IMG/VR virus record: IMGVR_UViG_3300016486_001479
From: an uncultured virus (IMG/VR IMGVR_UViG_3300016486_001479)
Lineage: Duplodnaviria; Heunggongvirae; Uroviricota; Caudoviricetes
Reading direction: 5' to 3' (one strand)
Length of the DNA stretch: 64,000 bases
This document shows positions 14,353 to 40,534 of this stretch, in pieces (the first letter of the stretch is position 1; each line of letters begins with the position of its first letter). The notes below the pieces were generated by a model that was not told the origin of the DNA, did not search any database, and saw nothing but the letters and a program-made list of their open reading frames with translations. The translations under genes and the position numbers were made by a program.

Positions 14353-14428
14353 AACTTAAGGTAAGAATGGTAAAGAGAGTTACTTCATTTCCACATTTAA
14401 CAATTTTTTCCAAAATATACCAAGAGTT
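14353..14428 (+). ncRNA. Y-RNA-like element 1 (GTTACTTC stem family, divergent)
   Basis: GGTA..TGG.AAAGAGAGTTACTTC...TTTTTTCCA..TACC stem upstream of Ro60. Confidence 0.5.
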
Positions 14429-14431
14429 TAC

Positions 14432-14710
14432 GACTTTCAGAGTGTTGAGAGGTGTGAACGTTTTTGACGTTTCCTAGGGGTTACTTCAACTATAAACAAA
14501 CAAGCAAACAGGCTTTTTTGGAATAGTCGAAAGACCGTTTCGAAAAGACCATAAACAGAAACCCAGACACCAAGGATAGACTTGGATTTTCAGCCATTAA
14601 TGAGCTGGTGACGGATTGGAACAGTACAATCACGATTACGGTAGACCGTATGACCGAAAGAGAAAGAACTTTCAACCTTATCACCCCCCTCTATTTTACC
14701 TCGAACAGTT
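14432..14710 (+). ncRNA. Y-RNA-like element 2 (long, ~280 nt)
   Basis: TTCAGAGTGTTGAGAGG...GGGGTTACTTC pairs with CACCCCCCTCTATTTTACCTCGAA; large internal domain. Confidence 0.6.
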
Positions 14711-14713
14711 ATT

Positions 14714-14793
14714 TGCCTTACGGTGTTAAGGAGATGAGTTACTTCAACTACAAATAGAAAAACCACTCTCTCCAGGATTACCCGACCAAGGCA
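14714..14793 (+). ncRNA. Y-RNA-like element 3
   Basis: TGCCTT-ACGGTGTTAAGGAGATGAGTTACTTC...CACTCTCTCCAGGATTACCCG-ACC-AAGGCA. Confidence 0.65.
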
Positions 14794-14805
14794 TTATATT
14801 TTTCG

Positions 14806-14843
14806 AAAAAGCACCCTCTGCAAAGATGTGGTGCTTTTTTTTT
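14806..14843 (+). terminator. intrinsic terminator between Y-like RNAs and Ro60
   Basis: AAAAAGCACC...GGTGC followed by T8. Confidence 0.65.
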
Positions 14844-14897
14844 ATGCGCCAAAAACAAAGAATTAATAGAATAACAACAATTATAAACAACGACGAG

Positions 14898-16418
14898 ATG
14901 TCAAAATTTAACGAAAAATCAAAGGTAGAAATGACTACCAACAAAGCGGGAGGAGAGGCTTATAAGTCGACTCCAGAGTTAGAGCTTGTGACGATTCTGT
15001 TGAACTCGTTTGTGTCTGATGACTTCTATTCGAAGGCAGGAGACCAAATAAAGGAGTTGACATCCGTTCTTAGCAAAGTGGACCCAGAGTTCGCAGCAAA
15101 GGCGGCTGTCTATGCCCGTAACGAGTTTGGAATGCGTTCTATCACCCACGTACTTGCGGGTGAAATCGCTAAGCACGCCTCAGGTAAGGCCTGGGCTAAA
15201 GAGTTTTACGCAGCTATTGTACGTCGTCCAGACGACATGACTGAGATTATGTCCTACTACTTCGGTAGAGAGGGTAAGAAAGCATCTTTGCCAAACGCGC
15301 TAAAGAAAGGTTTCAAGAAAGCTTTCGGAAAGTTCGATGCATACCAGCTTGCCAAGTACAGAGGAGACAAGAATGAAGTATCGCTTGTTGACGTTGTAAA
15401 CTTGGTTCGTCCAAAAGGAACGGCTAGAAACGAGAAGGCACTTGCCGAGCTTGTTGCTGGAACCCTAAAGAGTGAAAACACTTTCGAGTCTAAGCTGTCC
15501 GCAGCTGGCCAGGGAGCGAAGACCTCTGAGGAGAAAGCCGCAAACAAAGCTGAGGCTTGGTCTGACTTGGTTATGTCAGGTAAGATTGGACAGTTTGCTC
15601 TTCTAAGAAACCTTAGAAACATCATCCAAGATGCTTCTGACGAGGTTCTTAACAAGGCATGCGAGCTGTTGACTACAGAGGCAAGAATTAAGAAGTCACT
15701 GATTCTTCCATTCAGATACATCACTGCACTCGACGAGATTACAGTGTTGACTGGAACAAAGTCTAAGAAAGTTCAAAGAGCGCTTAACACCGCCGTAGAC
15801 CTAGCTTGTTCTAACATTCCAAAGTTTGATGGAAACACTGCAGTCGTAATTGACCTGTCAGGTTCTATGGATTGCCCAATTGCTGGAGGTAAAACTTACA
15901 GGAATAAAGTGGCAGCTCTATTTGGAGCCATGATGGCCAAGGCTAGTGATGCTGATGTAATGTCGTTTGGAACACACGCAATGTACCTTCCAGTTAACGT
16001 GAATGACTCAGTAATGGGTATGGCAAACTGGATTGTTGATACAAACCAAGGCTACGGCAACGTTGGCAAGTACAGGGTTGGTCACGGAACGAACTTCCAA
16101 GACATCTTCGTTAAGATGAAGGCGAAATACGACCGTGTATTCATCTTCTCGGACATGCAAGCGTGGATGGAGTACAATACTCCAAAAACTCAGTTTGCAG
16201 CGTACAAGAAGAAGTACGGTGCTCAGGACTGTAAAGTTTACGAGTTCAACTTGGCTGCAAGCGGAAGCATGCAGTTCCCAGAGAAGAACGTATTCGCGCT
16301 AAGAGGATTCTCTGAAAAGATTTTTGATGTCATTGACAATCTAGAAGTCGACAAAAGAGCGCTTATCAACACTATCAACAATTATGTTGATTTTGCTGAG
16401 CTTGCAACTAAGGAATAA
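14898..16418 (+). CDS. rsr: Ro60/TROVE-domain RNA-binding protein with vWA domain
   Basis: TTNKAGGEAY, YARNEFGMRS, FDAYQLAKY, ALLRNLRNI, ILPFRY, VIDLSGSM (MIDAS), GTNF, IFSDMQ, GFSEKIF. Confidence 0.93.
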   Translation: MSKFNEKSKVEMTTNKAGGEAYKSTPELELVTILLNSFVSDDFYSKAGDQIKELTSVLSKVDPEFAAKAAVYARNEFGMRSITHVLAGEIAKHASGKAWAKEFYAAIVRRPDDMTEIMSYYFGREGKKASLPNALKKGFKKAFGKFDAYQLAKYRGDKNEVSLVDVVNLVRPKGTARNEKALAELVAGTLKSENTFESKLSAAGQGAKTSEEKAANKAEAWSDLVMSGKIGQFALLRNLRNIIQDASDEVLNKACELLTTEARIKKSLILPFRYITALDEITVLTGTKSKKVQRALNTAVDLACSNIPKFDGNTAVVIDLSGSMDCPIAGGKTYRNKVAALFGAMMAKASDADVMSFGTHAMYLPVNVNDSVMGMANWIVDTNQGYGNVGKYRVGHGTNFQDIFVKMKAKYDRVFIFSDMQAWMEYNTPKTQFAAYKKKYGAQDCKVYEFNLAASGSMQFPEKNVFALRGFSEKIFDVIDNLEVDKRALINTINNYVDFAELATKE

Positions 16419-19677: not shown

Positions 19678-20097
19678 ATGAAAAAAGCATTAGACAACCA
19701 GTAAGTACACCCTTCTACAGAGAAGAAAAACTTAAAGCTTTACATCGTCGTAAGACGAGACCTCGCTCCTGGAGCGCAGGCAACTCAAGGAATGCATTCA
19801 TTCCACGTATTCAATCAAGAATACACAGCCATTTATGAAAAATGGTTATCGAATCCATATTTAGGATTCTTATCAGTCAAAGACGAGCAAGAACTCATCG
19901 AGCTCCGAGACAAACTCACGCAAAAAGGTATTAATTTCAGTTCCTTCCAGGAGCCTGACCTCGACAACCAGTTCACGTCTATTACCGTAGAACCAGGGAA
20001 AGAATCTGCCCGTTGGTTATCTAGTCTACCACTTGCTTTCAAAGAATTTACGAATCAACCAACTCTCAAGAGTTGTAATTGTAAAGAAGCCGCATGA
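19678..20097 (+). CDS. PTH2-like peptidyl-tRNA hydrolase with in-frame TAA at codon 9
   Basis: ATG 19678: MKKALDNQ*VHPSTEKKNLKLYIVVRRDLAPGAQATQGMH...FQEPDLDNQFTSI...LSSLPL. The conserved KLYIVVRRDL lies upstream of the ORF-track start 19792 in the same frame. Confidence 0.75.
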
Positions 20098-20118: not shown

Positions 20119-20165
20119 GGTGCGAGAGCTTTTGGCTCATGGGACATTCGATTGTCCCCGCACCA
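20119..20165 (+). ncRNA. mini-tRNA-like element, family A copy 1
   Basis: GGTGCG/CGCACC stem, one hairpin GAGC/GCTC, T-like arm GGGACA-TTCGAT-TGTCCC. Confidence 0.65.
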
Positions 20166-20169
20166 CTAC

Positions 20170-20218
20170 GGCGGATGCATAAGCACCAGTTCAGGTTAAA
20201 GTCCTGAATCCGCCACCA
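20170..20218 (+). ncRNA. mini-tRNA-like element, family B copy 1
   Basis: GGCGGA-TGCATAAGCACCAG-TTCAGG-TTAAAGT-CCTGAA-TCCGCC-ACCA. Confidence 0.7.
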
Positions 20219-20292
20219 GACGGGATAGCTCAGCGGTTAGAGCACCAGGCCTTAAAAACCTGGGGACGAGAGTTCGAATCTTTCTCCTGTCA
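20219..20292 (+). tRNA. tRNA with 9-nt anticodon loop CCTTAAAAA (identity uncertain)
   Basis: Full cloverleaf; anticodon stem CCAGG/CCTGG. Confidence 0.75.
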
Positions 20293-20300
20293 CAACAAAA

Positions 20301-20312
20301 GTTCATTGACGT
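20301..20312 (+). promoter_or_regulatory. boxA-like antitermination element
   Basis: GTTCATTGACGT; relatives GTTCTTTGACAT at 39119 and 62984, GCTCTTTGACGT at 37575. Confidence 0.6.
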
Positions 20313-20328
20313 GTTGGAATTTAAAAAA

Positions 20329-20382
20329 GGCGTGAGAGTCCATTAGGGATTCGCGGGAGATTCGTTTCTTCCCACGCCACCA
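20329..20382 (+). ncRNA. mini-tRNA-like element, family A copy 2
   Basis: GGCGTG-A-GAGTCC/GGATTC-GC-GGGAGA-TTCGTT-TCTTCC-CACGCC-ACCA. Confidence 0.7.
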
Positions 20383-20383
20383 C

Positions 20384-20429
20384 GGCCCCTGCATTAGCAC
20401 TAGAGGAAGAGAAAGTCTTCCTGGGGCCT
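20384..20429 (+). ncRNA. mini-tRNA-like element, family B copy 2
   Basis: GGCCCC-TGCATTAGCACTAG-AGGAAG-AGAAAGT-CTTCCT-GGGGCC. Confidence 0.65.
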
Positions 20430-20432
20430 CTT

Positions 20433-20512
20433 GGTGAGGTAGCTCAGTTGGTTCAGAGCACCAGGCTTTAAAACCCTGGAGGTCGAAGGTTCAAGTCCTT
20501 CCCTCACCACCA
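20433..20512 (+). tRNA. tRNA with 9-nt anticodon loop CTTTAAAAC (possible UUA suppressor-like)
   Basis: Cloverleaf with fully paired stems and encoded CCA. Confidence 0.8.
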
Positions 20513-20513
20513 C

Positions 20514-20559
20514 GCCGCTTGCATTAGCACTAGAATAGGTGAGATTCCTGTTAGCGGCA
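20514..20559 (+). ncRNA. mini-tRNA-like element, family B copy 3
   Basis: GCCGCT-TGCATTAGCACTAG-AATAGG-TGAGATT-CCTGTT-AGCGGC-A. Confidence 0.65.
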
Positions 20560-20562
20560 CTT

Positions 20563-20705
20563 CCTGGAGTAGCTCAGTTGGTTAGAGCACCACCCTGATA
20601 AATGAGGAAAAGGATTGAAACGCAACCTGCGTGGCCACAAGGGTTGTGAAGTAGAGAATTGGAATCGAACGGTGGGGGTCGGGGGTTCGAGCCCTTCCTC
20701 CAGGA
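20563..20705 (+). tRNA. tRNA-Ile(GAT) with 69-nt insertion at the 3' side of the anticodon loop
   Basis: CCTGGAG...CCACC-CTGATAA-[20602-20670]-GGTGG...TTCGAGC...CTCCAGG-A. Confidence 0.75.
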
Positions 20706-20711
20706 CAATTT

Positions 20712-20878
20712 CATGCGATAGCTTAGATATGTTAAAGCACCACACTGATAATGTGGAAGACGAACCGAAAGGACTCAGTTCGGGATGCAAACACAAAAAC
20801 TCACTTGCGTGGCCACAAGAGTGAGTTAGTAGTTGATGTTGAAGAAATGATGGGGGGCAGAACCCTCTCGCGGGACCA
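20712..20878 (+). tRNA. degenerate tRNA-Ile(GAT)-like with ~90-nt insertion before the T arm
   Basis: CCACA-CTGATAA-TGTGG anticodon arm; ends TCGCGGG-ACCA; T loop aberrant. Confidence 0.55.
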
Positions 20879-20938
20879 TTATAATGAGCAGTGAGATGCT
20901 TGGGGAGGCGCTGTTCTCATAAACAACTTCCCCCACAT

Positions 20939-20990
20939 GGCGTGAGAATCTGAAAGAAGATTCGCGTGAGATTCGTTTCTCCCCACGCCA
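20939..20990 (+). ncRNA. mini-tRNA-like element, family A copy 3
   Basis: GGCGTG-A-GAATCT/AGATTC-GC-GTGAGA-TTCGTT-TCTCCC-CACGCC-A. Confidence 0.65.
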
Positions 20991-20996
20991 CAACAT

Positions 20997-21122
20997 GGGC
21001 GGATTGCACCAAGATTTTTAAGGAAATGTTCGAACGAGTACTTAAAAGGATGGAAGGCGCAAAACTAGATGGCTTAGCGGCCATAAGAAAAGTTGTAGGT
21101 TCGATTCCTATTCCGTTCACCA
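20997..21122 (+). ncRNA. tRNA-like RNA: acceptor stem, T arm and CCA around a ~90-nt non-tRNA interior
   Basis: GGGCGGA...GTAGG-TTCGATT-CCTAT-TCCGTTC-ACCA. Confidence 0.6.
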
Positions 21123-21144: not shown

Positions 21145-21657
21145 ATGGTAGAGACAAACAGAATTACACCCCAAGTGGTGATTGATGCTTTATGTGAGAG
21201 ATTAAACCCGAAGCCTGGAGCGAGAATACTAGAACCATCTGCAGGCACAGGAGTATTGGCGGACGGGGTTCAAGAAAAATTCCAACAGTGTAAAATTGAC
21301 TGTGTAGAACTTAATCAAGAATGCCGAGTCACACTGAAAGAAAAAGAATATGAGTTGGTTGGCTCAGACTTCTTCCGATTCGAAGCCCAGACACCATATG
21401 ATTACGTCATTGCCTGTCCTAACTTTCGAGACAATGTCGATTGCAAACACATCATGCACATGTATGACCAACTTGCACCAGGCGGAACAATCTCAAGCTT
21501 AACATCTCCTTTTTGGATGGTTGGAGAGACTTAACTGCACAAAGAATTCCGTGAGTGGCTTCAAGATAAGAACTACTCCGTGACAATGGTCCCAGATTAT
21601 TCATTTGTTGAGGATTACAAAACTGTACCCTCAGCTATAATCCGAATCAAGAAATGA
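21145..21657 (+). CDS. class I SAM-dependent (DNA-MTase-like) methyltransferase with in-frame TAA at 21532
   Basis: ILEPSAGTG, CVELN, DFF, YVIACPNF; frame continues past TAA as LHKEFREWL...VPSAIIRIKK* to a TGA overlapping the next ATG. Confidence 0.7.
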
Positions 21658-23029: not shown

Positions 23030-23101
23030 GGGGCGTTAGTTCAGAGGTAGAACATCAGGCTTTAACCCTGTACGTCAGGGGTTCGAACCCCCTACGCCCC
23101 T
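23030..23101 (+). tRNA. tRNA with TTA anticodon (ochre suppressor)
   Basis: GGGGCGT/ACGCCCC acceptor, GTTC/GAAC D stem, TCAGG-CT TTA AC-CCTGT, AGGGG-TTCGAAC-CCCCT. Confidence 0.85.
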
Positions 23102-23173
23102 CTTGAATTACAGATAGAAAAAGGCCGCCCTTCGAACAGTTTTTATATTTGTAAAATTGATTACATTTGTAGA

Positions 23174-23863: not shown

Positions 23864-24542
23864 TGGACGATTTGACCCAAGTTCAAAGACCTGTTCTTGC
23901 AGCACTAAATTTAAAATTATGAATAGAATTAAGCAATGTTTTTTATACAATGTTAGTTGCCGTTTTTCCTTACACTTTTGGGAGATAAGCAAATGGACTA
24001 GATTTAAAGATAAAAAATGTAAACAGATATACGAACAAGGATTTAGACGAGAGTGTAAGGTTTGCGATAAAAGCCAATATTTAGGAAAGCCAAAAAAGTA
24101 TGACCCGACAGCTTATGTTTGGTTAAACTCTAATGGCAACGCCCCTTGTATGGTGGCGTTGTGAGGAACGAACTATGCACTATACAAAGTGCTGTGTGTA
24201 GTGCGGATTATTAATTAAATAATATTGAAATGGAAAGAAAGATAAATTGTAAATATAATAACAAAGGTGCTTGGTGTACCAATGAAAATATTAAACGCTC
24301 ATTGTTTGGAATAGGCGCAAGATGTTGTAGTAAATTTTACGACAAAGAGTGTGACTTCCAAGAAATCAGAACCAAAAATCTAAGCCACCGCCAAGACGTA
24401 CAAAAGTGTAGCATTACACACAGCGTTAAATGTATGTTATCGGTTTTGTTTTTCACAAAACTGGAATATACATAGCGTTATGCTACGTGTTGAATTATTA
24501 AAGGATGATGTTTATTTGAAACTATTTTTATATAAAGATACT

Positions 24543-25061: not shown

Positions 25062-25261
25062 TCTTGAAAAATAAGGTGCGTTGGCAAAATTCTTTTGTTT
25101 TTATCACAAATGTTAAATTGAAGAACTGAACTAAGGCATGGAGCATAACGTTAAATGTATGTTATCGGTTTTGTTTTCACAAAACTGGAATATACATAGC
25201 GTTAGCACCAGTACGGTTTGTTTGTCAGAAATTTAATTTTGGAATATCTATATATAAAAGA

Positions 25262-34933: not shown

Positions 34934-35754
34934 ATGAGCAAAGTAAAGTCAATTCTTTTTAAAATTGAAATTGAAGGCAATGGCGTTGTTAATTACGATA
35001 GCAATGAGCAACGGTTCCATATTGGAGAAAAATTCCCTTTCTTAAAATCATACCATAGCAACGTAATGTATGCAAAGAGAAACATTTACAACGATGGAAA
35101 AGAGCCTCGTTACAAATTAGTTATTTCGCCTACCTGCATGAAGCATGCGATGTATGATAAAGTGTCTCAAACACCAAAGCTTACACACAATAAAGATTTA
35201 CTTTATGCAAACCTTGCCCATCCAGAAAGCATTCTTAATGGGCACTTGCATGCCATTAAAAACGATACGTTAAAAAGAAAAGGAGCCATTACACTAGTAG
35301 CTGCCGAACAAACGTGCGATGCTCTTTCGCGTCTCGAATTCCATTCAAAGTCTGGTGAGAAAATCAGCTATGAAGCAGACGAAGAAAAAAGTGATAATTC
35401 TATCTACAAAAAAGAAACAATTGGGAAGATTAAGTATTCATCTCAAGGTGCTATAAACCTGAAAGAGCTTCAGTTTTACTCTTGTGACGAAATCATGGGA
35501 CGTTATGGTTTTAATCCCGACCATTTTGATTTATTCAAAAAGTACGCCGACATTCACTTTGGCTCATTTGATAATGAGCTTGGATTTTTCCAAATGAGAG
35601 GAAGTTCTGTAAACATTGCTGAGCGTGGATTCAAATTCACAGATGACCAGGTTCGTTTATTAGTTTCTGTATTTTAGAAAAGCTTCTTACGTTGGACATC
35701 AGTCGAAGCAGTGCTTATGCACGCAAAGAGAAGCTGATGGTGAAACTGGTTTCC
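34934..35754 (+). CDS. cas7: Cas7, resembling type I-F2 (I-Fv) Cas7fv; probable homopolymer frameshift at ~35675, end in N gap
   Basis: VKSILFKIEIEGNGVVNYD, ISPTCMKH, KETIGKIKYSSQGAINLKELQF..D, ERGFKFTDDQVRLLV..LEKLLTLDI follow the order of Cas7fv motifs as recalled from memory. Confidence 0.7.
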
Positions 35755-39267: not shown

Positions 39268-39357
39268 GGCGAGGTACTCAAATGGTAAAGAGGCCGCTTT
39301 GCTAAAGCGGTAGGGCAGTAAAATGTTACGTGGGTTCGACCCCCATCTTCGCCTCCA
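39268..39357 (+). tRNA. tRNA-Ser(GCT)
   Basis: CCGCT-TT GCT AA-AGCGG, encoded CCA. Confidence 0.9.
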
Positions 39358-39360
39358 TAT

Positions 39361-39445
39361 GGATAGATACTCAAATGGTAAAGAGGCTGTCTTGGAAAGG
39401 CAGTAGGCCCTTCGGGGTGCGAGAGTTCGAACCCCACTTCGTCCA
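39361..39445 (+). tRNA. tRNA-Ser(GGA), 3' half poorly paired
   Basis: CTGTC-TT GGA AA-GGCAG; mismatches in T and acceptor stems. Confidence 0.7.
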
Positions 39446-39496
39446 CCCCTGGGCGGTTTTGTACTTTTTGAAGCTATGTATTAGAAATAATACACC

Positions 39497-40397: not shown

Positions 40398-40451
40398 CTT
40401 ATGGTTTGTATCGACCAGGTCAGGATTAACCTGACCAAACAGATACGATAC

Positions 40452-40534
40452 GCTGGTCCTACTTCATAGGTGAGAGAGACAGATTCCAACCCTGTCGCCT
40501 TCGGGATTTGTGGGTTCGACTCCTACGACCAGCG
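40452..40534 (+). tRNA. tRNA-Trp(CCA) with long variable arm
   Basis: GCTGGTC/GACCAGC, loop TT CCA AC, variable arm CGCCTTCGGGATTT. Confidence 0.7.

What the first reader, a model, noticed from the sequence alone, without database searches (positions are those of the whole stretch)
20170..20559. Mini-tRNA family B: 46-49-nt minihelix RNAs with a conserved TGCATWAGCACYAG linker
Seen: three copies (20170, 20384, 20514). Stem sequences differ completely but stay fully paired (6-bp acceptor + 6-bp T-like arm, 7-nt loop), while the 14-nt linker is nearly invariant. Copy 1 ends in ACCA. Each lies directly 5' of a full-length tRNA gene. Covarying stems around a fixed linker argue for selection rather than decay. 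Inference: anticodon-less tRNA mimics, for example decoys for tRNA-targeting toxins, processing signals, or partners of the adjacent PTH2-like protein.
Basis: partly seen in the sequence, partly recalled or inferred. Interest (0 to 1): 0.82.

Follow-up and report, generated by a model that had tools for sequence, protein, structure and literature searches.

The report
Anticodon-less mini-tRNA genes in huge phage
A very large salt-lake phage carries three small genes that fold like the top half of a tRNA with no anticodon arm, packed head-to-tail among odd tRNAs, which suggests a natural tRNA mimic that cannot decode, though it has not been seen as RNA or in any other virus.

Summary
Three 49-nt units (20170-20218, 20384-20432, 20514-20562, + strand) share a 14-nt linker (13 of 14 bases identical). 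Each has a 6-bp outer stem and a 6-bp inner stem. All 45 of 45 pair cells are paired, and 8 of the 12 long-stem pairs changed on both sides.

Several features mimic the tRNA top half:
- a 12-bp acceptor/T-type stack (6+6);
- a G-C closing pair and loop A like tRNA G53-C61 and A58;
- a 4-nt trailer that starts N-C, as in all 14 tRNAs of the window;
- a downstream tRNA that starts on the very next base.

Neither Rfam nor ARAGORN calls them tRNAs.

They sit in a 1-kb array where every unit is non-canonical: a second mini family, two tRNAs with 9-nt anticodon loops, two with inserts, and a G3:U70 tRNA-like RNA. The array lies between a PTH2 gene and a methyltransferase gene, both with an in-frame TAA, and 3.7 kb from a Ro60 gene.

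I found no homologue outside this phage and no RNA data.

Best reading: tRNA-derived, RNase P/CCA-processed, non-decoding mimics with a sequence-specific partner. The structure is shown; processing and function are inferred.

The parts
20170..20218 (+). B1 mini-tRNA. Acceptor-like stem 20170-20175 / 20209-20214. Linker 20176-20189 (TGCATAAGCACCAG). T-like arm 20190-20195 / 20203-20208 with loop 20196-20202. Trailer ACCA 20215-20218. The next tRNA starts at 20219.
20384..20432 (+). B2 mini-tRNA. Stem 20384-20389 / 20423-20428. Linker 20390-20403 (TGCATTAGCACTAG). T-like arm 20404-20409 / 20417-20422. Trailer TCTT 20429-20432. The next tRNA starts at 20433.
20514..20562 (+). B3 mini-tRNA. Stem 20514-20519 / 20553-20558. 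Linker 20520-20533. T-like arm 20534-20539 / 20547-20552, which holds one U-G pair. Trailer ACTT 20559-20562. The next tRNA starts at 20563.
20119..20169 (+). Context: A1, a second kind of anticodon-less mini. It has a 6-bp outer stem, a variable hairpin and a 6-bp arm with a UUCGAU loop. Its trailer is ACTA plus C, and B1 follows directly.
20329..20383 (+). Context: A2, same build as A1. Its trailer is ACCA plus C, and B2 follows directly.
20939..20994 (+). Context: A3, same build as A1 but with one mismatch in the inner arm. Its trailer is ACAA.
20219..20295 (+). Context: tRNA with a 9-nt anticodon loop (CCUUAAAAA) and a short variable region. Its trailer is ACAA.
20433..20512 (+). Context: tRNA with a 9-nt anticodon loop (CUUUAAAAC). 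It encodes ACCA, then one C, then B3.
20563..20708 (+). Context: tRNA (anticodon GAU) with a 69-70-nt insert in the anticodon loop.
20997..21122 (+). Context: unit C, a 126-nt tRNA-like RNA. Its acceptor stem is GGGCGGA/UCCGUUC with G3:U70, followed by A73 and CCA. It has a canonical T loop (UUCGAUU) but no 7-nt anticodon loop.
19678..20097 (+). Context: PTH2-type peptidyl-tRNA hydrolase gene just upstream of the array, with an in-frame TAA at 19702-19704.

Best explanation
B1-B3 are genes for small RNAs of about 45-49 nt that descend from a tRNA of this same array. They lost the anticodon arm and most of the D arm. They kept the 'top half': an acceptor-type stem stacked on a T-type arm (6+6 = 12 bp, the same length as 7+5 in tRNA), a discriminator base and a tRNA-type 3' trailer.

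They are transcribed as part of one tightly packed array: A unit, B unit, tRNA. I infer that they are cut out as tRNAs are. RNase P would cut at their own 5' end and at the 5' end of the tRNA that starts directly after their trailer. That cut leaves B1 with a ready ACCA end. B2 and B3 would need 3' trimming and CCA addition.

The mature RNA cannot decode. It would offer a tRNA-like acceptor end to proteins that read only the top half of tRNA. The nearly invariant single-stranded linker gives a sequence-specific handle for one dedicated partner.

The most likely use is in the phage's conflict over tRNA integrity: as a decoy, sink or substrate for enzymes that act on tRNA acceptor ends.

What is shown: the structure, its conservation among the paralogues, the tRNA-like end signature, the arrangement and the strand. 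What is inferred: transcription, processing, the CCA end, the partner and the role.
For: Structure:
- 45 of 45 pair cells are paired, 8 pairs changed on both sides, and 0 of 500 shuffles reach this.
- The linker is 13 of 14 identical while the stems diverged.
- Only three copies exist in 64 kb, at 67-69 bits; the next hit scores 11.7.
- The modules persist in a 621-nt fold of the array.

tRNA-like ends:
- All 14 Rfam tRNAs of the window have C right after the discriminator. So do 3 of 3 B units, 3 of 3 A units and unit C.
- B trailers are exactly 4 nt, and the next tRNA begins on the following base.
- The CTT trailer of B2 and B3 also follows three ordinary tRNAs.

tRNA-like arm:
- The closing pair G-C and the loop A at position 5 are invariant, matching tRNA G53-C61 and A58 (tRNA numbering is from established knowledge).

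Origin:
- The B1 linker shares the 8-mer AGCACCAG with the array's tRNAs but at most 5 bases with the other tRNAs of the window. 128 of 5000 shuffles do as well.

Strand and composition:
- The U-G pair in B3 fits only the + strand.
- G+C is 0.50-0.53 in the array against 0.39 for the window.

Context:
- PTH2, Ro60/TROVE and an RNA ligase are encoded nearby.
- Toxins that act on tRNA acceptor ends exist and take part in phage defence: toxSAS/CapRel and MenT (abstracts seen in the listing).

Precedent:
- The anticodon-less tRNA-like domain of M. smegmatis YrlA is cut by RNase P RNA and receives CCA (PMC4201824, passages read).
Against: - There are no RNA data. 24 of 24 listed runs are DNA, so expression and processing are unproven.
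- No homologue was found outside this phage. Strict-pattern scans of IMG/VR, JGI metagenomes and GTDB genomes gave only chance hits or the same phage.
- Five other viral records have no match, two of them with a Ro60 gene.
- All covariation therefore comes from three paralogues.
- The loop lacks the U55-C56 of a real T loop and the linker lacks G18-G19. The tRNA elbow that RNase P and other factors use is probably absent.
- The acceptor stem has 6 bp, not 7. The YrlA paper names the 7-bp stem as a major determinant for RNase P.
- B2 and B3 do not encode CCA.
- None of the three carries a known acceptor-stem identity set. There is no G3:U70, for example.
Confidence: 0.5

Rival explanations
1. 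Cis-acting processing or stability modules. The B units are tRNA-shaped leaders that only guide RNase P or 3' trimming, or protect the aberrant tRNAs that follow. Once released, the mini has no job of its own.
For: Each B lies directly 5' of a non-canonical tRNA with no spacer. All three downstream tRNAs have abnormal anticodon arms and might need help in folding or processing.
Against: - A processing signal does not need a 14-nt single-stranded segment kept at 13 of 14 bases while the stems drift.
- Ordinary tRNAs of this phage lie 2 nt apart without such leaders: 39268-39357 and 39360-39448.
- A and B units also occur without each other (B3 has no A; A3 has no B), so each is a module in its own right.
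Confidence: 0.2
2. Parts of the phage's Ro60/Y-RNA system. The minis would supply in trans the tRNA-like module that bacterial YrlA RNAs carry in cis, or they would be Ro60 ligands themselves.
For: - A TROVE plus Ro60-vWA protein is encoded at 14826-16415.
- The only YrlA-like Rfam hit in the window covers B1 and the start of the next tRNA: 20168-20272, 22.3 bits.
- In two other Ro60 phages a YrlA-like RNA with a tRNA-like domain lies just 5' of the gene. In this window the same place holds a hairpin with the GNCGAAN0-1G motif but no tRNA-like domain.
Against: - The YrlA score is far below the family's threshold of 69 and rests mostly on tRNA features of the neighbouring tRNA.
- B2 and B3 lack the Ro-binding motif.
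- The array is 3.7 kb from the Ro60 gene, with several genes between.
- The two other Ro60 viral records have no B unit.
Confidence: 0.1
3. Relics without function. One tRNA gene lost its middle by deletion. The remnant was copied with the A-B-tRNA block and is drifting.
For: - The family is confined to one phage lineage in every search.
- The linker looks like a shortened D-arm/anticodon-stem segment of the neighbouring tRNAs.
- Homing-type endonuclease genes lie in the phage's other tRNA clusters.
Against: Neutral drift that changed 8 of 12 stem pairs would not leave all 36 long-stem cells paired, nor the linker at 13 of 14. Trailer length and the C after the discriminator are also kept.
Confidence: 0.1
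4. A DNA-level signal: the conserved 14-mer is a promoter or protein-binding site placed before each tRNA.
For: The motif sits at a fixed distance, 29 nt, before each tRNA start.
Against: The acceptor-type stem spans the motif and covaries at 4 of 6 pairs, which only an RNA that contains both sides explains. The consensus scan found no sigma-70-type site there.
Confidence: 0.04
5. Minimal decoding tRNAs. The 6-bp arm with its 7-nt loop would be the anticodon arm, as in armless mitochondrial tRNAs.
For: The loop has 7 nt. In B1 it reads UU-AAA-GU, with U at the place of U33.
Against: - B2 and B3 have G at the place of U33.
- No nucleotides separate this arm from the 3' acceptor strand, so it would stack on the acceptor stem instead of pointing away from it.
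- ARAGORN in mitochondrial mode calls none of the three.
Confidence: 0.02

Closest known systems
tRNA-like domain of bacterial and phage Y RNAs (YrlA, Rfam RF02553), partners of Ro60/Rsr
   Same: It is a tRNA mimic without an anticodon loop, made of acceptor-type, D-type and T-type elements. In M. smegmatis it is cut by RNase P RNA and receives CCA (PMC4201824, passages read). A Ro60 gene is present in this phage.
   Different: - In YrlA the acceptor-type stem is closed by a loop, and the RNA ends lie in a Ro-binding stem that takes the place of the anticodon stem. B has an open acceptor end and no such stem.
- YrlA has canonical D and T loops; B does not.
- B scores 22.3 bits against a threshold of 69.
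Synthetic tRNA minihelices (acceptor stem plus T arm) used as model substrates
   Same: The same 12-bp coaxial helix ending in NCCA. From established knowledge (recalled, not read here), such helices are handled by RNase P, the CCA-adding enzyme, EF-Tu and some aminoacyl-tRNA synthetases.
   Different: Those are laboratory constructs made of one hairpin. B is a natural gene family and carries an extra conserved 14-nt linker between the 5' acceptor strand and the arm.
tRNA-like domain of tmRNA
   Same: An acceptor stem plus T arm without an anticodon, acting outside normal decoding.
   Different: tmRNA has G3:U70 for alanine charging, a canonical T loop and a long mRNA-like body. B has none of these. 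Unit C in the same array does have G3:U70. ARAGORN finds no tmRNA here.
Armless and arm-reduced mitochondrial tRNAs
   Same: Very short tRNA-derived RNAs of 42-55 nt.
   Different: Those keep the anticodon arm and lose the D and/or T arms. B does the reverse. ARAGORN in mitochondrial mode does not call B.
Small stable RNAs and tRNA-like RNAs encoded in viral tRNA clusters (T4 species 1 and 2 RNAs; gammaherpesvirus 68 tRNA-like RNAs). Recalled, not read here.
   Same: Non-decoding small RNAs that are co-transcribed and co-processed with, or like, tRNAs in a virus.
   Different: They differ in size and fold. None is described as an acceptor/T-arm mini with a conserved linker.

Membership tests
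tRNA (RF00005) | Cloverleaf with an anticodon arm (5-bp stem, 7-nt loop) that is recognised by tRNA models | tested here: not met
   cmscan lists no tRNA match over any B unit at E up to 10. ARAGORN calls none in standard, intron, pseudogene-threshold or mitochondrial mode.
tRNA (RF00005) | Acceptor stem stacked on a T arm (12 bp in all), followed by a discriminator and a CCA-type 3' end | tested here: met
   6+6 bp with no base between the arm and the 3' acceptor strand. The trailers are ACCA, UCUU and ACUU. C follows the discriminator as in 14 of 14 tRNAs of the window. Only B1 encodes a full CCA.
tRNA (RF00005) | T loop with U54, U55, C56 and A58, and a D loop with G18-G19 that together form the elbow | tested here: not met
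   The loops are UUAAAGU, AGAAAGU and UGAGAUU. A at loop position 5 is kept. U at position 1 is kept in 2 of 3 copies. U55-C56 is absent in all three. The linker has no GG.
YrlA / bacterial Y RNA (RF02553) | Score at or above Rfam's gathering threshold of 69 bits | tested here: not met
   22.3 bits at 20168-20272, spanning B1 plus part of the next tRNA. There is no hit over B2 or B3.
YrlA / bacterial Y RNA (RF02553) | 5' and 3' ends pair in a stem that carries the GNCGAAN0-1G motif (PMC4201824) | tested here: not met
   B1 reads GGCGGAUG, one base off the motif. B2 and B3 do not match. No such terminal stem exists in any B unit.
YrlA / bacterial Y RNA (RF02553) | Encoded next to the Ro60 gene and bound by Ro60 | tested here: inconclusive
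   The Ro60 gene ends 3.7 kb upstream of B1. Binding cannot be tested with these tools.
tmRNA tRNA-like domain | G3:U70 in the acceptor stem and detection by tmRNA models | tested here: not met
   The third pair is C-G in all three B units. Neither ARAGORN nor Rfam finds a tmRNA there.
Known small self-cleaving ribozymes and other three-way-junction RNAs in Rfam 15 | A match to any of the 4227 models | tested here: not met
   Apart from the weak YrlA alignment, no family matches a B unit at E up to 10.
Natural substrate of RNase P and the CCA-adding enzyme | Cleavage at the 5' end of the acceptor stem, and CCA at the 3' end of the mature RNA | not testable with these tools
   No RNA run holds the locus. 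The claim rests on geometry and on the trailer signature alone.

The most novel reading that the evidence does not exclude
The array is a dedicated locus of non-decoding tRNA look-alikes. Its A and B minis would be the first natural 'minihelix' RNAs. They would be CCA-ended, possibly aminoacylated, and recognised through their invariant linker by a phage or host protein. They would act as sacrificial acceptor ends that soak up host toxins aimed at tRNA 3' ends or acceptor stems. Candidate toxins are pyrophosphorylating toxSAS/CapRel, MenT-type nucleotidyltransferases and acetyltransferases whose products a peptidyl-tRNA hydrolase can clear. In this way the minis would shield the phage's own tRNAs. 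Among those tRNAs may be ochre suppressors, which the flanking PTH2 and methyltransferase genes appear to need.
Probability: 0.2. Interest if true: 0.85.

Novelty: new variant of a known kind. Interest (0 to 1): 0.62.

Why it matters
tRNA mimicry is known from Y RNAs, tmRNA and viral 3' ends. Free-standing genes for just the acceptor/T-arm half of a tRNA have not been described in the six literature searches I ran.

If these RNAs are made, three things follow:
- The 'top half' of tRNA, long used as a laboratory model and discussed as the older half of the molecule, would have a natural stand-alone use.
- Phages would gain a new kind of RNA tool in the fight over tRNA integrity.
- Researchers would gain a compact, naturally selected scaffold recognised by RNase P, the CCA-adding enzyme and perhaps synthetases.

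The locus also bears on stop-codon read-through in huge phages.

Tried and rejected
Searches for homologues:
- Exact 14-mer scan of IMG/VR. A script over 121 loci (the 118 plus 3 of the phage's own record) found both stems only in the own record; the best foreign locus had 2 unpaired positions. L017, with two matches, is a protein-coding tandem repeat.
- Stricter 30-column pattern with 19 fixed bases. IMG/VR gave 1 chance hit, L128. JGI metagenomes gave 3 loci, all this same phage at 99.9-100% identity. GTDB genomes gave 1 chance hit, L151.
- A-family pattern in IMG/VR: 0 hits.
- blastn of 1.6 kb against 50,697 GenBank phage records: only tRNA matches.
- Covariance model R1 on six viral records: matches only in G001, the near-identical record.
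- Looser structural descriptor: 9 hits in G001 (5 of them A or B units) against 0-3 in 5 shuffles. G003 gave 7 unrelated hits and G002 gave 0.

Relatives that exist but whose DNA I could not reach:
- Relatives found through neighbouring proteins lacked the array or were too distant.
- Closer relatives exist only as proteins. Their DNA could not be fetched.
- I tried to reach them through chance ORFs over the array. No candidate appeared. The other search returned three long repetitive proteins that are unrelated.

RNA and variation data:
- No RNA holder is listed among the 24 runs.
- Contigs of four DNA runs show no variant inside B1-B3.

Other checks:
- This scan's earlier notes hold nothing on this genome.
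- Global TAA reassignment is rejected: TAA ends 33 of 59 ORFs.
- The reading as a decoding armless tRNA, a promoter or a known ribozyme is rejected; see the rival explanations.

Full report

Each has the same layout:
- a 6-nt 5' strand;
- a 14-nt linker;
- a 6-bp arm with a 7-nt loop;
- the 6-nt 3' strand directly after the arm;
- a 4-nt trailer.

The copies are B1 20170-20218, B2 20384-20432 and B3 20514-20562.

The linker is TGCATAAGCACCAG in B1 and TGCATTAGCACTAG in B2 and B3.

Counting the proposed pairs on the ungapped alignment gives 45 of 45 cells paired. 8 of 15 pairs changed on both sides, 4 in each long stem. 0 of 500 shuffles reached any measure, and only 36-49% of cells paired when the 3' partners were slid by 1-3 columns. 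The three pairs of the little hairpin inside the linker (UGC/GCA) never vary, so nothing supports or contradicts that hairpin.

Each copy folds better than its shuffles: z = -4.09, -2.86 and -2.11. The family structure is the MFE for B3 and lies within 0.5 and 2.3 kcal/mol of it for B1 and B2.

A covariance model built from the three copies (R1) finds them at 67-69 bits. Nothing else in the 64-kb window scores above 11.7 bits with filters off.

B3 holds one U-G pair, which would be an A-C mismatch on the other strand. The RNA is therefore read from the + strand, the strand of all the tRNA genes.

No ORF of note covers the units. G+C rises to 0.50-0.53 across the array, against 0.39 for the window.

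**2. What surrounds them?**

The units belong to a 1-kb array (20119-21122) in which every gene is an abnormal tRNA relative. In order:

| Unit | Coordinates | What it is |
|---|---|---|
| A1 | 20119-20169 | second kind of mini |
| B1 | 20170-20218 | mini under study |
| tRNA | starts 20219 | 9-nt anticodon loop CCUUAAAAA |
| A2 | 20329-20383 | second kind of mini |
| B2 | 20384-20432 | mini under study |
| tRNA | starts 20433 | 9-nt anticodon loop CUUUAAAAC |
| B3 | 20514-20562 | mini under study |
| tRNA (GAU) | starts 20563 | 69-70-nt insert |
| tRNA-like | 20716-20880 | related insert |
| A3 | 20939-20994 | second kind of mini |
| Unit C | 20997-21122 | see below |

The A units are a second kind of mini. 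They have a 6-bp outer stem, a variable hairpin and a 6-bp arm with a UUCG-type loop.

Unit C has a 7-bp acceptor stem with G3:U70, then A73 and CCA. It has a canonical T loop but no 7-nt anticodon loop.

Spacing is tight and regular. An A unit has a 4-nt trailer plus one C, and B follows directly. A B unit has a 4-nt trailer, and the tRNA follows on the next base.

In a fold of 621 nt of the array, A1, B1, A2 and B2 keep their own structures, and B3 keeps its outer stem.

Upstream lies a PTH2-type peptidyl-tRNA hydrolase gene. Downstream lies a methyltransferase gene. A Ro60 (TROVE plus vWA) gene ends 3.7 kb upstream. An RNA ligase, a TyrRS-like fragment and Cas3/Cas6-like genes lie further on.

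The host genome is a very large virus. One metagenome contig with the identical array is 446,956 bp long. All 24 runs that hold the locus are labelled salt lake metagenome.

**3. Why 'tRNA top half'?**

Four features point the same way.
- The two long stems add up to 12 bp with no base between them on the 3' side. That is the length of the acceptor/T stack of tRNA (7+5). The same holds for the A units.
- The arm's closing pair is G-C in all three copies and the fifth loop base is A in all three, matching tRNA G53-C61 and A58 (tRNA numbering is from established knowledge). The bases that would meet a D loop (U55, C56) are gone, and so is the GG of the D loop. This is coherent for an RNA without an elbow.
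- All 14 tRNAs that Rfam calls in this window have C as the first base after the discriminator, followed by variable bases (CAA, CCA, CTT, CTA, CAC, CCC). The three B units (CCA, CTT, CTT), the three A units (CTA, CCA, CAA) and unit C (CCA) do the same. The 3' ends of the minis thus carry the signature of this phage's tRNA genes.
- The 3' half of the B1 linker (AGCACCAG) is identical to the segment running from the 3' strand of the D stem into the 5' strand of the anticodon stem in the array's tRNAs. It matches the window's other tRNAs by 5 bases at most. 128 of 5000 shuffles of the linker do as well. This is modest support that B arose from such a tRNA by loss of its middle.

Neither Rfam (E up to 10) nor ARAGORN in four modes calls a B unit a tRNA. 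That is expected for an RNA with no anticodon arm.

**4. How it most likely works**

Shown:
- a conserved fold;
- a nearly invariant single-stranded linker;
- tRNA-type ends;
- head-to-tail packing on the tRNA strand.

Inferred:
- The array is one transcript.
- RNase P cuts at each acceptor 5' end. For B1 the cut that frees the next tRNA leaves exactly ACCA.
- B2 and B3 need trimming and CCA addition, as do the many tRNAs of this phage that lack an encoded CCA.
- The mature RNA cannot decode.

Its stems may vary freely as long as they pair, but its linker may not vary. This argues for a partner that reads the linker sequence and the helical shape. A pure processing signal would not need that.

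The genes around it deal with tRNA ends and damaged RNA (PTH2, Ro60, RNA ligase; passages of PMC7824862 read). Defence toxins that modify tRNA acceptor ends are known (abstracts in the listing). I therefore favour a decoy, sink or dedicated-substrate role. I give the whole chain 0.5. The structural part alone I hold at about 0.85.

**5. The Ro60 lead**

The only YrlA-like hit in the window overlaps B1 (22.3 bits against a threshold of 69). The alignment uses B1's arm, the B1/tRNA junction as a poor 'acceptor hairpin', and the D arm of the next tRNA. It is a tRNA-likeness hit, not membership.

In two other viral records with a related Ro60 gene (44-48% identity), a YrlA-like RNA with a full tRNA-like domain lies just 5' of the gene (31 bits, E about 0.003-0.006). 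Neither record holds a B unit.

In this window the same position holds no YrlA hit. It does hold a hairpin at 14479-14536 that carries GUCGAAAG. This fits the GNCGAAN0-1G motif named in PMC4201824. The word GUUACUUCA, shared with those YrlA-like RNAs, occurs three times there.

So the phage probably has its own Y-type RNA next to Ro60, one that lacks the tRNA-like domain. Whether the minis supply that module in trans is an open and attractive idea. I give it 0.1.

**6. Search for relatives**

- The exact linker occurs by chance in many viral contigs.
- A stricter pattern gave complete scans. IMG/VR returned one chance hit. JGI metagenomes returned only this phage. GTDB genomes returned one chance hit.
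- R1 found nothing in five other viral records, which are 4-98% complete.
- Proteins 65-86% identical to the two flanking genes exist in other assemblies.
- One of them, P0019, runs on into a frame that reads ...GFYITVREL. This is the translation of the first bases of A1 in this window. At least the start of the array is therefore kept in a relative.
- The decisive covariation test is thus well defined but not done.
- No RNA run is listed, and the DNA contigs laid show no variants in the units.

**7. Verdict**

The feature is real and very unlikely to be chance or neutral decay. It is a new variant of tRNA mimicry, an open-ended and anticodon-less 'top half' with a fixed linker. So far it is known from one huge-phage lineage only. 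It has not been seen as RNA, and its function is inferred.

Six full-text searches found no description of such genes. Supplements were not consulted.

Interest is 0.62.

Noticed in passing
window 21145-21657 (+), TAA at 21532-21534: The methyltransferase gene just after the array has an in-frame TAA. The 40 codons after it align well with the C-terminal ends of full-length homologues (43-49% identity). They end in a TGA that overlaps the next gene's ATG. Seven closer relatives (65-98% identity) are all called as ending at the same residue. The stop is therefore conserved and probably read through.
   Followed up: partly
window 19678-20097 (+), TAA at 19702-19704: The PTH2 gene just before the array has an ATG followed by 8 codons and then TAA. 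The conserved N-terminal strand (KLYIVVRRDLAPGAQA) lies after that TAA, with no ATG, GTG or TTG start before it. Five close relatives (65-82% identity) are called only from the internal Met. Distant homologues start at MVVVTRRDL.
   Followed up: partly
window 23030-23102, 20219-20293, 20433-20512 (+): There is a tRNA with anticodon UUA (reads UAA) in a normal 7-nt loop. Two further tRNAs have 9-nt loops that contain UUAAAA on the same CCAGG/CCUGG stem. Together with the two in-frame TAA codons, this suggests ochre suppression in this phage. Yet TAA ends 33 of 59 ORFs, so it is not reassigned overall.
   Followed up: partly
window 20563-20705 and 20716-20880 (+): Two tRNA-like genes carry inserts that share a hairpin with the loop GCGUGGCCACAA. 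Its stems differ but still pair (CAACCU/GGGUUG against ACUCACUU/GAGUGAGU). On the minus strand the inner palindrome scores as terminator-like.
   Followed up: partly
window 20997-21122 (+): Unit C is a 126-nt tRNA-like RNA with G1-C72, G2-U71, G3-U70, A73, an encoded CCA and a canonical T loop. Its body is made of other hairpins and has no 7-nt anticodon loop. It is a possible alanine-accepting mimic. ARAGORN calls no tmRNA there.
   Followed up: partly
window 14826-16415 (+) and 14379-14746: A Ro60 (TROVE plus vWA) gene is present. Upstream of it lies a hairpin (14479-14536) that holds GUCGAAAG, which fits the Y-RNA motif GNCGAAN0-1G. There are also three copies of GUUACUUCA, at 14379, 14480 and 14738. 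Related Ro60 phages have a YrlA-like RNA at the same place: L132 9803-9914 and L133 797-903.
   Followed up: partly
window 20119-20169, 20329-20383, 20939-20994 (+): This is a second family of anticodon-less minis (A1-A3). Each has a 6-bp outer stem, a variable hairpin and a 6-bp arm with a UUCGAU or UUCGUU loop. No match to their shared pattern was found in IMG/VR.
   Followed up: partly
window 35708-35721 (-), within 35678-35734: A 12-base match to the B linker (TGCATAAGCACT) lies inside a hairpin on the minus strand, between the Cas3-like and Cas6-like genes and next to a masked stretch. The match counts are within chance: 5 matches at up to 2 mismatches against 1.06 expected, and 3 of the 5 are the B units.
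   Followed up: no
window 24431-24472 and 25156-25196 (+): Two near-identical copies of a roughly 41-nt element lie 725 nt apart (TGTATG...TTTCA CAAAAC TGGAA TATACA TAGCG), each before a gene start.
   Followed up: no
window 40413-40458 (-): A G+C-rich structure shaped like the minis (GACCAG...GTCAG GTTAATC CTGAC CTGGTC) lies between tRNA-Arg and tRNA-Trp, but on the opposite strand. R1 scores it at 11.7 bits.
   Followed up: no
L131 (contig of 446,956 bp) and G001 (141,051 bp): The same array lies on a 447-kb metagenome contig, so the virus is among the very large phages. G001 differs from the window by indels of about 2.3 and 1.6 kb between the tRNA clusters. I worked this out from tRNA positions.
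   Followed up: no
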